DNA from: Candidatus Thorarchaeota archaeon
GTDB taxonomy: Archaea > Asgardarchaeota > Thorarchaeia > Thorarchaeales > Thorarchaeaceae
Length of the DNA: 64,000 bases
Direction of reading: 5' to 3'
NCBI GenBank assembly: GCA_048884785.1
Contig: JBHLQM010000006.1
Coordinates: forward strand, 1,289-65,288
Made by a program: the position numbers and the translations under genes. The notes under the pieces are model-generated. The model was not told the origin of the DNA. It saw only the letters and a program-made list of their open reading frames with translations, and made no database searches. Positions 28,134 through 46,746 of this stretch are shown here, one piece after another; the stretch's first letter is position 1, and each line of letters opens with the position of its first letter.

Positions 28134-29333
28134 ATGGTACAGCTAAAGAGAATGGTTCTCCCATTCACTGCATTAGTAGGATTGGAGCGACTTAAACTAG
28201 CTCTAATCTTAAACGGAGTTAATCCTCGTATTGGTGGTCTACTAGTTTCAGGTCCAAAAGGCACTGGGAAGACGACACTTGTTAGAGCTTTTGCAGAGCT
28301 GCTACCTGAAATTGAAGTAGTCGAAGGCTGCCGATTTGGATGTAATCCTCGAAATCTGGAAACCCTTTGTGAGGAATGCAACAAGCGCATCGAATCAGGA
28401 GAGAAGCTCCCCATCCTATCTGGAAAAATGAGAGTTGTCAATCTTCCACTTTCAACAACAGAGGATCGATTAATTGGTTCGCTGGATCTTGAGAGAGTGC
28501 TGAAAGATGGAATTCAAGCGCTAAGGCCTGGCATCCTTGCAGAAGCTCACCAGAACATTCTCTATGTTGATGAAGTGAATTTGCTGCCAGATCATCTTGT
28601 AGACGATCTTCTTGATGCTGCAGCAACAAAGGTCAATGTAATTGAACGTGAAGGCATCTCTATTTCACATTCATCAGATTTTGTGTTGATGGGTTCTATG
28701 AATCCCGAGGAAGGTGAATTGCGTCCCCAGCTACTCGATAGATTTCCTCTTCATGTATCAGTTGGGTCCAATTACTCGATAGAGGACAGGATGGAGCTCG
28801 TTCGGCGGAATCTGGATTTTGAGAACTCTCCGTATGAGTTCATGGAAAAATGGGAAAAAGAACAAAGTGATTTGAGGCAGCAAATCATTTCGGCGAGAAT
28901 GCTACTTCCAGAAGTTGAATTATCAGAAACTCAGCTTCGAGCAATAGCTATGGCCACAGATGCTCTTGAAGTGGATGGCGTTCGCCCTGACATAATAATC
29001 AGCAAGGCATCGGTCACACTTGCAGCATTCTTTGGTAGAAAAAGTGTAGAACTTGAAGATATGCAGTTGGCTGCCCAATTGACTATGAGCCACAGAACGC
29101 GTCGTGGAGGACTTTTGGAACCTCCCTCACAGAATGAAATCAATGAATCCATTTCAAAGGCACATGATGTTGCACAAAAACAAGACCGAAGAAAATCTCC
29201 CACTGAAGTAGGCGAAGAATCAGGAGAGAAGACTTCAGGAGAACGAAGAAGTGGCGGTAAATTCGGACGGCAAGGATCCTTTGCAGATATGAGTATGGGT
29301 GAGGAAGGCAAAAAAAAACGCCGACAAGAATAA
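28134..29333 (+). CDS. Mg/Co-chelatase subunit I (ChlI/BchI)-type AAA+ ATPase; N-terminal part of a frameshifted ChlD-like gene
   Basis: PFTALVG, GPKGTGKT, TEDRLIGSLD, LYVDEVN, MNPEEGELRPQLLDRF. Ends just after the A9 run. Confidence 0.9.
   Translation: MVQLKRMVLPFTALVGLERLKLALILNGVNPRIGGLLVSGPKGTGKTTLVRAFAELLPEIEVVEGCRFGCNPRNLETLCEECNKRIESGEKLPILSGKMRVVNLPLSTTEDRLIGSLDLERVLKDGIQALRPGILAEAHQNILYVDEVNLLPDHLVDDLLDAAATKVNVIEREGISISHSSDFVLMGSMNPEEGELRPQLLDRFPLHVSVGSNYSIEDRMELVRRNLDFENSPYEFMEKWEKEQSDLRQQIISARMLLPEVELSETQLRAIAMATDALEVDGVRPDIIISKASVTLAAFFGRKSVELEDMQLAAQLTMSHRTRRGGLLEPPSQNEINESISKAHDVAQKQDRRKSPTEVGEESGEKTSGERRSGGKFGRQGSFADMSMGEEGKKKRRQE
29310..29318 (+). other. A9 slippery site, candidate -1 programmed frameshift
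   Basis: GGC AAA AAA AAA CGC. The -1 frame is open from 29303 (after TGA at 29300) through the vWA ORF; the 0 frame stops at 29331. Confidence 0.7.
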
Positions 29334-29377
29334 GAAATCCACGAGGTGATGCCATTCGTGGTACTATCTGTGCTATC

Positions 29378-30814
29378 ATGATGATGGTAGTCTTTGCCTA
29401 TTTTGCTTGGTTGGCAATCAGTCCAGTGAATGTCTTATTTGGATATCCTCTTGGAGTATATCCACCTTCAATAGAACTCGCAATAATAAACACGATACTG
29501 TATATCCCTCTCATTTACTCGGCTGTGAAGAGATGGCTAAGAACCATGTTGAAGAGACAGAGAGGTCCTGCAGCAGGAATTGACACCGTTGAGCCTGGAT
29601 ACGCCGAACCCGAACCCGGTGATGAATGGGGCCGCGCAACGAGACCATATCGCGCCAGAAGCGAAACAAAGACAACCGGTTCGAAATCTGATCTACGAGA
29701 TGCCGCACTTGCTATTGACTCTGCATTCTTTGTAAAACTACCTGACCTCGAAACTGGAGAGTATCTATTCCAACCGGGCGATTTGAAGGCAAAGGCCATG
29801 ATAAGATCCCGTGTATCTTCCGGCGGATGGAAGAATAAGAGAACAAGTACAAGAGCTGCTGGCTCAGTCAAGGCATCAGAATCTCTTAAGACCGGACGAG
29901 CATCTCGATGGCGTCAGCCTGTAGGAGATGTTTCCTCAATACATTTACCTTCTACAATTATGTCCGCAATTTCAAGAATTGGAAAATTTTCGAAAGGTGA
30001 AATAATTCAGATTAAGAAAGAGGACATTAGGGAGAAGGTCTATACAGGGAGAACGCCCTTGACTATCATCTTGGTTGTTGATGTTAGTCTATCAATGAAA
30101 GGAAGCCTGAAAGCTGTAAGGACTATAATGGACAGGATAGAGAGAGAAACGCGAGGCTCCAAGGACAGGATTGGCATTATTGCTTTCAAAGATACTGGCG
30201 CAATCGAGGTTCAGGCCCCAACAACGAATTGGAACAAGATTTACCGTGCTCTCGGGAGACTTCGTATTTCTGGTCTAACTCCGCTTGCTGAAGGTCTTAT
30301 GAAAGCTCTCGAAGCCATTAAGCGAGAAAGAATGCGAAATCGAGACATTGAGCCATTAGTTATAGTAATCTCAGACTTTGCGCCAAATATTCCATTGGCA
30401 CAATCCGTGGGGCCTGGACATGCACAATACACCCCCATAAAGGATCTTGTAAAAGCATCTCGATTACTTCGAAAGCAGGATGTGAGATTAGCTGCAATAA
30501 GTGTGGATCGTGAACATAGAAAATGGTCTAAGTTCATGAAAAGGCCCTATCATGAAGCATTGGAACTTGCAACTCTCCTTCGGATGAGAAAAGAGGGTTA
30601 TTCTGATATTATCGAAACAATTCTTGGTGTGAACGATTTTCGTCAAAACTTCGGGGCGTTCCTTATCGCACGTACCAGTGGAGGTCACGCGTATCTGGCA
30701 GAGGAGCTGGAGCGGGAAAGGTCAATGATCAACACGATTCTCAATGCCAGTCGGTCAAAGGCACGTATGAGTATTCACCGACTACGAGAATTGGAATCTT
30801 ATCTGGAAACGTAG
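29378..30814 (+). CDS. ChlD-like vWA domain protein with N-terminal transmembrane hairpin
   Basis: MIDAS residues DVSLS, GLTPL and ISD; DIREKV pre-vWA motif; two hydrophobic segments at the N-terminus. Confidence 0.85.
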   Translation: MMMVVFAYFAWLAISPVNVLFGYPLGVYPPSIELAIINTILYIPLIYSAVKRWLRTMLKRQRGPAAGIDTVEPGYAEPEPGDEWGRATRPYRARSETKTTGSKSDLRDAALAIDSAFFVKLPDLETGEYLFQPGDLKAKAMIRSRVSSGGWKNKRTSTRAAGSVKASESLKTGRASRWRQPVGDVSSIHLPSTIMSAISRIGKFSKGEIIQIKKEDIREKVYTGRTPLTIILVVDVSLSMKGSLKAVRTIMDRIERETRGSKDRIGIIAFKDTGAIEVQAPTTNWNKIYRALGRLRISGLTPLAEGLMKALEAIKRERMRNRDIEPLVIVISDFAPNIPLAQSVGPGHAQYTPIKDLVKASRLLRKQDVRLAAISVDREHRKWSKFMKRPYHEALELATLLRMRKEGYSDIIETILGVNDFRQNFGAFLIARTSGGHAYLAEELERERSMINTILNASRSKARMSIHRLRELESYLET

Positions 30815-30998: not shown

Positions 30999-32009
30999 TT
31001 GAAACCTGGAAAAATCCCTCCTTCCATTCTGGAATCGGTTGTCTTCAAATATCTTGGAAGCAACCATCCAAATCTAATTCTTGGTCCTTCTATTGGGCAA
31101 GATGCATCACTCATCAAGATGGGAGATAGAATTCTGGTTGCCTCAACGGATCCCATTACAGGTTCAATCGAAGATGTTGGTTGGTTGTCTGTTCACATCA
31201 ATGCGAATGACATAGCAACCTTTGGTGTCGAACCTCAGTGGTTTCTAAATTCTATAATGCTCCCTCCTGACTCAGGACCCAGTGAATTAGAGAGGATAAT
31301 GAAGCAAATACAGGAGGCTGCTGCATCATTAAATATTGTTGTGGCAGGGGGTCATACTGAAATTACGGAAGGGATTGAAAATCCAATTATTGCAGGATTC
31401 ATGCTTGGAGAAACAAGAGAGGGCTCCTATGTCACTTCTGCAGGTGCTCAACCTGGAGATGCCATAGTAATGACAAAGACTGCAGCAATTGAAGGTACCG
31501 CGATTTTAGCTGCGGAAGGTTATGATTTTTTGGTGCAAGTGCTTGGAAAAAGTGTAGTTGACCAAGCAAGAGAACTTCGAAAGAATATAAGCGTAGTAAG
31601 AGAAGGTGTTACTGCATTCAAAACAGGATATCTTACTGCAATGCATGACCCGACCGAGGGCGGTATTGCAAATGGTATCCACGAGCTCTGCGATGCAAGC
31701 CATGTAGGCTGTCTCATCTATCCAAACTTGATACCCGTACATTCTGCAACCAAATCGATTTGTGAATCCCTAAAGATTGACCATCTTCAATTAATTAGTA
31801 GCGGCAGTATGCTTCTAACATGCAGAAAGGCGCACTCAAATGAAGTTCTCAAGGCTCTTGCATCTGTGAGTATTCCTGCTGTAGTCATTGGTGAAACACT
31901 TAAAGATCCTCAAGACAGATTAATTGAATCAACGCAAGGGAAGACGGAGCTAGTGCGGCCAGAATCAGATGCACTGTGGACTGCGCTCCATAGATTTACT
32001 CGTTCATGA
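30999..32009 (+). CDS. AIR-synthase family (HypE/PurM/ThiL-like) protein
   Basis: STDPIT, ANDIA, GGHTE and MHDPTEGG. Confidence 0.88.
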   Translation: MKPGKIPPSILESVVFKYLGSNHPNLILGPSIGQDASLIKMGDRILVASTDPITGSIEDVGWLSVHINANDIATFGVEPQWFLNSIMLPPDSGPSELERIMKQIQEAAASLNIVVAGGHTEITEGIENPIIAGFMLGETREGSYVTSAGAQPGDAIVMTKTAAIEGTAILAAEGYDFLVQVLGKSVVDQARELRKNISVVREGVTAFKTGYLTAMHDPTEGGIANGIHELCDASHVGCLIYPNLIPVHSATKSICESLKIDHLQLISSGSMLLTCRKAHSNEVLKALASVSIPAVVIGETLKDPQDRLIESTQGKTELVRPESDALWTALHRFTRS

Positions 32010-46257: not shown

Positions 46258-46746
46258 TTACTTCGGGGTCTCTATTGAATATCTTCTTGGTGTCAATCCG
46301 ATTTGTCTAAACCCATTCTCTACATTCCGAATGGGATTCTTCTCTCCCACATATCGAAGGACGTGAGTTGAACAGGATTCCTGGCAATCAGATGATCCAA
46401 ATCCTCTTGGTCCCCATTGAAAGGGGCCTACATCAGCAAGAGACCTGATTAATATGCATTCCTTCTTTCCATTAGATTCAGCCCAGATTGCCTCCTTGGA
46501 GGAGATTTCATCAGACAGAAGGTGATCAATGTGCCAGTGAATTTTCTTTTTTTTTCTGAAATGACGACGTAATCTATTTTCTAGATTTGTTGAGCCCAAT
46601 CCCTGCGCGGATCCAATATAGATCCAATAGCCAGATGTAAATTCGAAAGCTCTACCGGATTCTAGCAGGATTTTAACATCTCTCCTGAGATGGACGATTA
46701 AGGCATAGACGCCCCTCATTTCAGCATTCACTCCTGCAGGATTCAT
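46258..46746 (-). CDS. DUF123 / Uri-superfamily (GIY-YIG) nuclease
   Basis: GVYAL, YIGSA, RLRRH, HWHID, EC and GFGSSDC..C.TH. Confidence 0.88.
   Translation of the reverse strand: MNPAGVNAEMRGVYALIVHLRRDVKILLESGRAFEFTSGYWIYIGSAQGLGSTNLENRLRRHFRKKKKIHWHIDHLLSDEISSKEAIWAESNGKKECILIRSLADVGPFQWGPRGFGSSDCQESCSTHVLRYVGEKNPIRNVENGFRQIGLTPRRYSIETPK

What the first reader, a model, noticed from the sequence alone, without database searches (positions are those of the whole stretch)
28134..30814. Candidate -1 programmed frameshift joining a ChlI-type ATPase to a vWA domain
Seen: the AAA+ frame reads GGC AAA AAA AAA CGC CGA CAA GAA TAA (A9 at 29310-29318). The -1 frame opens just before the run (TGA at 29300) and stays open (KKTPTRIRNPRGDAIRGTICAIMMM...) to 30814, so the two frames overlap for only ~28 nt around the A-run. 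A hairpin CCACGA/UCGUGG lies at 29339-29361. Established: prokaryotic chlD genes are known to yield both small (I) and medium (D) chelatase subunits through frameshifting at poly-A. Inference: one locus makes a 399-aa and a ~893-aa subunit.
Basis: partly seen in the sequence, partly recalled or inferred. Interest (0 to 1): 0.72.

Follow-up and report, generated by a model that had tools for sequence, protein, structure and literature searches.

The report
Poly-A slippage site in chlD-like gene
In this Thorarchaeota (Asgard archaeon) genome, a run of nine A's kept across the whole family lets one chelatase-type gene make a short soluble ATPase and, after a one-base slip, a long membrane-anchored ATPase-plus-vWA protein. 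The device is already published for chlD genes, so this is a new lineage, not a new mechanism.

Summary
A9 lies at 29310-29318. The ChlI-like frame stops at 29331-29333. The -1 frame is open from 29303 to 30814.

A single A9 is not beyond chance in this window (2 seen, 2.3 expected). The comparative evidence is what decides:
- Among 43 distinct Thorarchaeota junctions, 42 keep a run of 9-11 A's at this spot. Of the 41 with both halves, 38 need a -1 shift.
- In 7 loci the -1 frame is closed until two bases inside the run.
- The 20 codons before the first possible ATG show clear coding periodicity in the -1 frame and hold no start codon.
- Three scattered A10 alleles are in frame, and so are the related genes of other Asgard lineages.

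One gene therefore very probably yields a 399-aa ATPase and an 893-aa ATPase-membrane hairpin-vWA protein.

RNA polymerase slippage is at least as likely as ribosomal frameshifting.

No CobN/ChlH gene was found in any of the 25 family genomes searched, so "chelatase subunit" is doubtful.

The poly-A recoding of chlD genes is published (Antonov 2013, 2020). This scan has already reported it in other genomes, Thorarchaeota among them. I rate it a new member of a known kind, of moderate interest.

The parts
28134..29333 (+). Zero-frame ORF: ChlI-like AAA+ ATPase, 399 aa (P0001). It has Walker A GPKGTGKT, Walker B DEVN, an AAA lid, and a disordered basic tail that ends in the Lys run. The true start may be Met7 (28152), because 28134 overlaps the 5' end of the divergent thrC ORF.
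   Evidence: TIGR02442 positions 2-354, E 6.5e-133; BchI-ChlI E 1.6e-112. (ChlI 6l8d, E 3.4e-94).
29310..29318 (+). A9 slip site (AAA AAA AAA in the zero frame). A -1 ribosomal slip, or one extra A in the transcript, moves reading into the vWA frame.
   Evidence: Conserved as A9 (33), A10 (6) or A11 (3) in 42 of 43 distinct orthologous junctions. The vWA frame is closed until 2 nt inside the run in 7 loci, and in L019 the zero-frame stop lies 2 nt after the run.
29300..29302 (+). TGA that closes the -1 (vWA) frame just upstream of the run.
29331..29333 (+). TAA stop of the zero frame, 12 nt after the run.
   Evidence: A zero-frame stop lies within 13 nt of the run in 36 of the 38 loci that need a -1 shift.
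29318..29377 (+). Segment read only in the -1 frame, upstream of any start codon. It holds a conserved peptide of the type IRNPRGDPIKGT(I)C.
   Evidence: column entropy at codon positions 1/2/3 is 0.61/0.36/1.45 over 20 codons in 43 sequences. and direct reading: no ATG, GTG or TTG in this frame between the frame opening and the motif.
29339..29361 (+). It is present here but is not a conserved element.
29366..29527 (+). Two hydrophobic helices (a membrane hairpin) flanked by basic residues on both sides, so both the AAA+ and the vWA modules are predicted to be cytoplasmic. The ATG codons at 29378-29386 lie inside helix 1.
   Evidence: sequence. (hydropathy of the in-frame orthologues). (AlphaFold helices 412-438 and 448-477 in the in-frame orthologue P0003). 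(hydrophobic linker segments in 27 fused hits, about 850-880 aa, those named by a source being Asgard).
30065..30517 (+). vWA domain with an intact MIDAS (DxSxS ... T ... D).
   Evidence: VWA_2 E 5e-13; TIGR02442 positions 399-617. (MIDAS residues invariant in 36 fused homologues). (BchD vWA 2x31, E 1.3e-4).
30545..30814 (+). C-terminal helical domain of about 90 aa that the ChlD/cobaltochelatase profiles do not cover, followed by the stop codon.
   Evidence: the profile match ends at residue 405 of 503. (confident helices 807-892 in P0003).

Best explanation
28134-30814 is one gene of the ChlI/ChlD (TIGR02442-like) type, read in two ways at the A9 run. Standard reading ends at TAA 29331 and gives a soluble 399-aa ChlI-like AAA+ ATPase. 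In a fraction of expression events the reading moves back by one base on the run. That gives an 893-aa protein with the same AAA+ module, a disordered basic linker, a two-helix membrane hairpin, a vWA/MIDAS domain and a small helical end domain. I think the slip most likely happens in RNA polymerase, which adds one extra A to part of the transcripts. Ribosomal -1 slippage on A_AAA_AAA is nearly as likely, and both may contribute. The short and long forms presumably co-assemble through their identical AAA+ modules into a ring tethered to the membrane, by analogy with the ChlI-ChlD complex. Its client is not a CobN/ChlH-type chelatase subunit. Shown here: the anatomy, the conservation of the run and of the frame break, coding selection on the start-less -1 segment, and in-frame relatives. 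Inferred: that both products are made, the level at which the slip occurs, the assembly and the function.
For: Anatomy. The orthologue is present in 22 of 24 family genomes searched. The AAA+ and vWA halves are offset by -1 in 38 of 41 distinct junctions. A run of 9 or more A's lies at the same place in 42 of 43, through divergence down to 54% protein identity. In 7 loci a TAA closes the vWA frame until 2 nt inside the run, and in L019 the overlap of the two frames is 10 nt, all within the run. The segment before the first ATG shows strong codon periodicity in the -1 frame and has no start codon. In-frame A10 alleles (L021, L055, P0004) are three separate tips of the tree, and the -1 state is ancestral in the family. 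Other Asgard lineages carry the same architecture in one frame. No separate ChlI paralogue exists in this genome or in the two genomes with in-frame alleles. Precedent: poly-A chlD cassettes gave 10% (A7), 40% (A9) and 63% (A11) shifted product in E. coli (PMC3711429). Points that favour RNA polymerase slippage: the run is never shorter than 9 except in one locus; it varies between 9 and 11 and in phase; no downstream structure is conserved; long A/T runs are about five-fold depleted genome-wide; one allele needs +1 (L038).
Against: No transcript or protein data are available, so neither product nor their ratio has been observed. At least one ATG is kept in one of two adjacent codons in all 43 sequences, so some independent initiation of a membrane-vWA protein cannot be excluded. 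L043 has only A7, followed directly by a zero-frame stop; that layout suits ribosomal frameshifting better than polymerase slippage. The in-frame alleles show the fused state is viable, so the split may not be essential. All genomes are metagenome assemblies.
Confidence: 0.85

Rival explanations
1. The shift is purely ribosomal: a classical -1 programmed frameshift on A_AAA_AAA. This differs from the best explanation only in where the slip occurs. The figure given is its share within the recoding explanation.
For: Every variant of the run contains an X_XXY_YYZ heptamer in the zero frame, whatever its phase. L043 keeps only A7, followed at once by TAA, and L014 carries the same A7-TAA in addition to A9. 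-1 frameshifting on an A-rich heptamer is proven in one archaeal gene, fucA1 (PMC8211752).
Against: No conserved downstream stimulator. The two A's beyond the heptamer are also invariant. One allele needs +1. A-runs of this length are classic polymerase slippage sites (Thermus dnaX A9, quoted in PMC3711429).
Confidence: 0.4
2. These are two separate genes. The vWA protein starts on its own at ATG 29378 (or by termination-reinitiation after TAA 29331), and no fusion protein is made.
For: An ATG is present in one of two adjacent codons in all 43 sequences. Gene callers annotate 492-534-aa stand-alone vWA proteins in Thorarchaeota. Shine-Dalgarno-like motifs are not general in this genome, so the lack of one here says little.
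Against: The 20 codons upstream of that ATG are under protein-coding selection in the vWA frame, are more conserved than the codons after it, and have no start codon. The A-run and the exact frame break are conserved. In-frame orthologues and outgroups are fused. The ATG codons lie inside a transmembrane helix, where Met is unremarkable.
Confidence: 0.07
3. The run is a hypermutable DNA tract. The population switches between A9 (split) and A10 (fused) genotypes, and that phase variation, not recoding, supplies the long protein.
For: A10 in-frame alleles occur three times independently, each next to an out-of-frame sister (L055/L054, P0004/L016, L021).
Against: 38 of 41 assemblies carry the out-of-frame state, including A10 and A11 runs that still need -1. 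Phase variation would predict a more even mixture, and no selection to keep the -1 relation as the run length changes.
Confidence: 0.05
4. The break is a sequencing or assembly error in a homopolymer, or a decaying pseudogene.
For: Homopolymers are error-prone, and the window comes from a metagenome assembly (91% complete).
Against: The same break appears in 38 independently assembled genomes from many studies. Both halves are under purifying selection.
Confidence: 0.02

Closest known systems
Frameshifted chlD genes (fs-chlD; the 'magnesium chelatase' fs-gene cluster): Antonov et al. 2013 NAR (PMC3711429); Antonov 2020 Mol Biol Evol 37:2268 (not held, cited through PMC9227772); Kuznetsov et al. 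2022 (PMC9227772)
   Same: The upstream frame is a ChlI-like AAA+ and the downstream -1 frame is a ChlD-like linker plus vWA. A poly-A run of 7-11 sits at the domain boundary. The pair is annotated as two adjacent genes. Fused homologues exist elsewhere. Some carriers lack a large subunit and the chlorophyll/B12 context ('stage 1' of PMC9227772).
   Different: The lineage is Thorarchaeota (Asgard); the published archaeal cases are Methanocaldococcus and Methanococcus. The linker is a two-helix membrane hairpin instead of a soluble linker. There is an extra C-terminal helical domain. No downstream RNA structure is present, whereas the papers describe one as usual. In this clade the split is derived from fused ancestors, whereas PMC9227772 argues that fs-chlD is ancestral.
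ChlI-ChlD / BchI-BchD motor of class I Mg-chelatase (structures 6l8d, 8osf, 1g8p, 2x31)
   Same: The AAA+ module aligns over its full length with ChlI (E 3e-94). The vWA with MIDAS is nearest to BchD. The idea of a short and a long AAA+ subunit forming one complex is the same.
   Different: No ChlH/CobN was found in this genome or in any of the 25 family genomes searched. Both products share one fully intact AAA+ sequence. The long form is membrane-anchored.
Thermus thermophilus dnaX (A9 transcriptional slippage) and E. coli dnaX (A_AAA_AAG -1 frameshift)
   Same: Two forms of an AAA+ protein come from one gene through slippage on an A-run. In Thermus the run has the same length, A9.
   Different: In dnaX the slip shortens the protein, whereas here it lengthens it. 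The E. coli site depends on an upstream Shine-Dalgarno-like element and a downstream hairpin; no hairpin is conserved here, and an upstream element was not tested.
Saccharolobus solfataricus fucA1 (-1 frameshift at A_AAA_AAT; PMC8211752)
   Same: An archaeal cellular gene split into two frames at an A-rich heptamer, with full-length alleles in relatives that differ by one A.
   Different: fucA1 is split in only two strains of one species and has a putative stem-loop. The present site is kept across a whole family of many genera.

Membership tests
fs-chlD recoding cluster (Antonov 2013/2020) | The upstream ORF is a ChlI-type AAA+ ATPase | tested here: met
fs-chlD recoding cluster (Antonov 2013/2020) | The downstream ORF is the ChlD-type C-terminal part (vWA with MIDAS), in another frame and without a conserved start of its own at the frame opening | tested here: met
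   MIDAS residues are invariant.
fs-chlD recoding cluster (Antonov 2013/2020) | A conserved A/T-rich slippery site lies in the short overlap, and orthologues share the same shift direction | tested here: met
   42 of 43 have A9-A11; 38 of 41 need -1.
fs-chlD recoding cluster (Antonov 2013/2020) | Single-frame fused homologues exist | tested here: met
   L021, L055, P0004 and other Asgard and Bathyarchaeia proteins.
fs-chlD recoding cluster (Antonov 2013/2020) | Both products are shown experimentally | not testable with these tools
   Needs a reporter assay, proteomics or cDNA sequencing.
fs-chlD recoding cluster (Antonov 2013/2020) | A downstream stimulatory RNA structure (described as usual, not obligatory) | tested here: not met
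Class I Mg/Co chelatase (ChlIDH / CobNST) | A large porphyrin-binding subunit (ChlH/CobN, PF02514) is encoded in the genome | tested here: not met
   No match in G000 (91% complete) or in any of the 25 family genomes searched (G000 and 24 relatives). It was found beside classical ChlD-like genes that lack the membrane segment in other Asgard families, and the control genomes matched.
Class I Mg/Co chelatase (ChlIDH / CobNST) | The medium subunit is soluble, with a Pro-rich/acidic linker between AAA+ and vWA | tested here: not met
   The linker holds two hydrophobic helices. That ChlD is soluble is established knowledge; I did not test it here.
Class I Mg/Co chelatase (ChlIDH / CobNST) | Metal-chelatase activity | not testable with these tools
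   Needs biochemistry.
MoxR-vWA systems | The AAA+ module belongs to the MoxR family | tested here: not met
   bpMoxR scores 21.6 bits against a cut-off of 27, far below the ChlI-type matches.
dnaX-type -1 frameshift cassette | Slippery heptamer plus downstream hairpin (and an upstream Shine-Dalgarno-like element) | tested here: inconclusive
   The heptamer is present and the hairpin is absent. A purine-rich GA(A/G)GG(C/T) precedes the run but cannot be separated from the coding constraint.
Programmed transcriptional realignment (Thermus dnaX type) | A homopolymer long enough to fill the RNA-DNA hybrid (about 9 nt) | tested here: met
   Run of 9 or more in 42 of 43.
Programmed transcriptional realignment (Thermus dnaX type) | Transcripts vary in the length of the run | not testable with these tools
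   No transcript data are held.

The most novel reading that the evidence does not exclude
The A-run is an ancient recoding site kept across the family in Asgard archaea. It works mainly through slippage of their Pol II-like RNA polymerase and sets the ratio of a soluble to a membrane-tethered AAA+ subunit. The resulting ChlI/ChlD-like ring has nothing to do with tetrapyrrole metalation. Instead it acts at the membrane on another client, for example MoxR/vWA-like maturation or metal loading of a membrane complex.
Probability: 0.3. Interest if true: 0.6.

Novelty: new member of a known kind. Interest (0 to 1): 0.4.

Why it matters
Very few recoding events are documented in cellular archaeal genes. 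The 2021 review (PMC8211752) lists one proven -1 case and mentions the methanogen chelatase genes only as presumed. A site held through the diversification of a whole Asgard family is a clean natural test case for two questions: whether archaeal (Pol II-like) polymerases or archaeal ribosomes slip on A-runs, and how two-subunit stoichiometry is set from one gene.

It also matters for annotation. Thorarchaeota records list the two halves as an 'AAA family ATPase' and a 'VWA domain-containing protein' with a wrong start.

The membrane hairpin and the lack of any CobN/ChlH partner show that a large branch of 'Mg-chelatase ChlI/ChlD' annotations in Asgard archaea probably does something other than chelation.

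In this clade the split state derives from fused ancestors, which does not fit the published proposal that frameshifted chlD is the ancestral form.

Tried and rejected
rejected. Its middle pairs are broken in 37-41 of 43 sequences. RNAalifold predicts no pair at all. The 60 nt after the run fold no better than shuffles in any orthologue (mean z -0.16, none below -2).
- **Chance significance of A9 in the window alone:** not significant. The significance rests on conservation and on the genome-wide depletion of such runs.
- **Shine-Dalgarno test for independent initiation at 29378:** uninformative. Only 19 of 52 crude ORF starts in the window have such a core.
- **Rfam and tRNA scans of the window:** nothing found.
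- **Antonov 2020 paper:** not held. It is cited only through PMC9227772.
- **Pfam PF26791:** listed for many fused homologues but absent from the local Pfam copy, so it stays unidentified.
- **Conserved neighbours as a clue to function:** threonine synthase, an AIR-synthase-like protein and SurE are syntenic within the family only. I judged this to reflect relatedness, not linkage.
- **Positional comparison with the published Methanocaldococcus or Pseudomonas sites:** not done, because I held no DNA for them.
Full report
**1. Observation**

ORF 28134-29333 (399 aa, P0001) ends ...GGC AAA AAA AAA CGC CGA CAA GAA TAA, with A9 at 29310-29318. The -1 frame is closed by TGA at 29300-29302 and is then open from 29303 to the stop at 30812-30814 (P0002, 503 codons). 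The first ATG in that frame is at 29378. The 6-bp hairpin at 29339-29344 / 29356-29361 exists.

A lone A9 is not remarkable in this window: 2 found, 2.26 expected. Genome-wide, however, only 11 A/T runs of 9 or more occur in 3.6 Mb, against about 60 expected from a first-order model. This is the only one that sits between two long ORFs.

**2. What the two frames encode**

- P0001 is a full ChlI-type AAA+ module. It matches TIGR02442 'putative cobaltochelatase' at positions 2-354 (E 6.5e-133) and BchI-ChlI (E 1.6e-112). Its nearest solved structure is ChlI 6l8d (E 3.4e-94).
- P0002 matches the same TIGR02442 profile at positions 399-617 and holds a vWA domain. Its nearest solved chain is the BchD vWA, 2x31.
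- The two frames together therefore cover one ChlD-like profile.
- Between the run and the vWA lie two hydrophobic helices flanked by basic residues. About 90 residues of helical domain follow the vWA.
- An AlphaFold model of a natural in-frame orthologue (P0003, 893 aa) shows these parts in order:
  - a confident AAA+ module (11-359);
  - a disordered stretch (360-412) that contains the Lys run;
  - helices 412-438 and 448-477;
  - disorder;
  - the vWA (644 to about 800);
  - a helical end domain (807-892).

**3. Organism and relatives**

A Snf7 gene in the window, and the titles of the related records, place the window in a Thorarchaeota (Asgard) metagenome-assembled genome: 3.6 Mb, 158 contigs, 91% complete.

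The orthologue was found in 22 of 24 family genomes searched, and 33 further public loci were fetched. After removing identical copies there are 43 distinct junction sequences.

**4. Conservation of the device**

- Run length is A9 in 33, A10 in 6, A11 in 3 and A7 in 1.
- Of the 41 junctions with both halves held, 38 need a -1 shift, 2 are in frame (both A10) and 1 needs +1 (L038, which has a one-base deletion just before the run).
- The phase of the run in the zero frame differs among lineages, but the -1 relation is kept.
- In seven loci (L008, L014, L018, L019, L020, L022, L040) the codon before the run is GGT. A TAA therefore closes the vWA frame until two bases inside the run. In L019 the zero frame also stops two bases after the run, which leaves an overlap of 10 nt, all of it within the run. 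The shift must therefore happen on the run.
- L043 has lost the A9 (it reads AAAAAGAAA) and instead carries A7 followed directly by TAA a few codons downstream. L014 has both.

**5. The start-less segment is translated**

The 20 codons between the run and the first ATG have column entropies of 0.61, 0.36 and 1.45 bits at codon positions 1, 2 and 3 of the vWA frame. That is a stronger coding signature than in the 18 codons after the ATG.

They encode a conserved peptide of the type IRNPRGDPIKGT. No ATG, GTG or TTG lies between the frame opening and this motif in 40 of 41 sequences scanned, and none in the window on direct reading. This is the main argument against independent initiation at 29378. 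Those ATG codons lie inside the first membrane helix.

**6. No RNA stimulator**

- RNAalifold predicts no consensus pair in the 160-nt alignment.
The middle pairs are broken in 37-41 of 43 sequences.
- The 60 nt after the run fold like shuffled sequence in every orthologue (mean z -0.16).

**7. History of the split**

On a tree of the vWA halves rooted with in-frame Asgard relatives, the Thorarchaeota sequences form one clade in which the -1 state is ancestral. The three in-frame alleles (L021, L055, P0004) and the +1 allele are four separate tips, each beside out-of-frame sisters.

Fused hits of about 850-880 aa, those named by a source being Asgard ('Promethearchaeota'), carry the same architecture with hydrophobic linker segments in one frame. 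Bathyarchaeia have fused forms of about 800 aa without membrane segments. In this clade the split is therefore derived.

**8. Mechanism**

The comparative data show that both frames are read and that the transition occurs on the run. They cannot tell whether the ribosome or the RNA polymerase slips.

These points favour the polymerase:
- the minimum run length of 9 (the two A's beyond the heptamer are also invariant);
- growth of the run to 10-11;
- the absence of any stimulator;
- tolerance of in-frame and +1 alleles in genomes that have no separate ChlI gene;
- the genome-wide avoidance of long A/T runs.

These points favour the ribosome:
- the A7-plus-stop layout in L043 and L014;
- the proven A-rich -1 site of fucA1 (PMC8211752).

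In E. coli, chlD cassettes gave 10%, 40% and 63% shifted product for A7, A9 and A11 (PMC3711429), which fits either mechanism. I put the split at roughly 45:40, with both possibly acting.

**9. Function**

No CobN/ChlH gene (PF02514) was found in this genome or in any of the 25 family genomes searched (this genome and 24 relatives). Other Asgard families have it directly beside classical ChlD-like genes that lack the membrane segment, and the control genomes matched.

Walker A and B, the MIDAS and a Cys4 motif are invariant in 36 fused homologues, so the protein is very probably an active ATPase/vWA machine. I infer that a membrane-tethered ring is built from short and long forms and acts on an unknown client. 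'Chelatase' is a label from homology only.

**10. Comparison and novelty**

Poly-A -1 recoding of chlD genes that yields small and medium subunits is published (PMC3711429; Antonov 2020, cited through PMC9227772), including carriers without a large subunit (PMC9227772).

Earlier follow-ups of this scan reached the same reading on other genomes, two of them Thorarchaeota. I consulted them only after my own analysis.

What this lineage adds:
- conservation across a family of Asgard archaea;
- a membrane hairpin in the linker;
- the lack of a stimulatory structure;
- a derived rather than ancestral origin of the split.

Verdict: real and well supported, a new member of a known kind, of moderate interest.

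Noticed in passing
window 28329-28379 (P0001 Cys66, Cys70, Cys79, Cys82): A C-x3-C-x8-C-x2-C motif inside the AAA+ module is invariant in all 36 fused homologues aligned. It may be a zinc or redox site. I did not compare it with classical ChlI.
   Followed up: no
window 28134-28164: The ChlI-like ORF and the divergent threonine synthase ORF (26902-28164, minus strand; NF006050, E 2e-138) overlap by 31 nt at their 5' ends. At least one true start is probably internal, for example Met7 at 28152.
   Followed up: no
L038:2968-3127: One Thorarchaeota allele has a one-base deletion just before the A9, so the vWA frame is +1 rather than -1. It also has an ATG in the vWA frame five codons before the run. 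This may be a real variant or an assembly error.
   Followed up: partly
L043:2968-3127 and L014:2871-3030: The slip site has moved. L043 has lost the A9 and uses A7 followed directly by TAA a few codons downstream. Its sister L014 has both runs.
   Followed up: partly
L021:1501-4179 (minus strand), L055:1819-4512, P0004: There are three independent in-frame A10 alleles (893-898 aa in the two loci, 880 aa for P0004). The two genomes that could be searched (those of L021 and L055) have no separate ChlI gene.
   Followed up: yes
G038:C69, G027:C11, G030:C3, G040:C7 (other Asgard families): Classical ChlD-like genes of 640-720 aa without membrane segments lie next to a CobN gene of about 1240 aa. 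The membrane-hairpin type occurs without CobN.
   Followed up: partly
window 30999-32009: An AIR-synthase-related gene (best matches HypE/ThiL/SelD, all below their cut-offs) lies directly downstream on the same strand in every Thorarchaeota locus fetched. It does not lie beside the fused relatives of other Asgard families.
   Followed up: partly
window 46547-46555 (minus strand): This is the second A9 run of the window, inside ORF 46258-46746. It does not join two long frames.
   Followed up: partly
window 30545-30811: A C-terminal helical domain of about 90 aa follows the vWA. The ChlD/cobaltochelatase profiles do not cover it, and it is confidently folded in the model. Its fold was not searched.
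   Followed up: no
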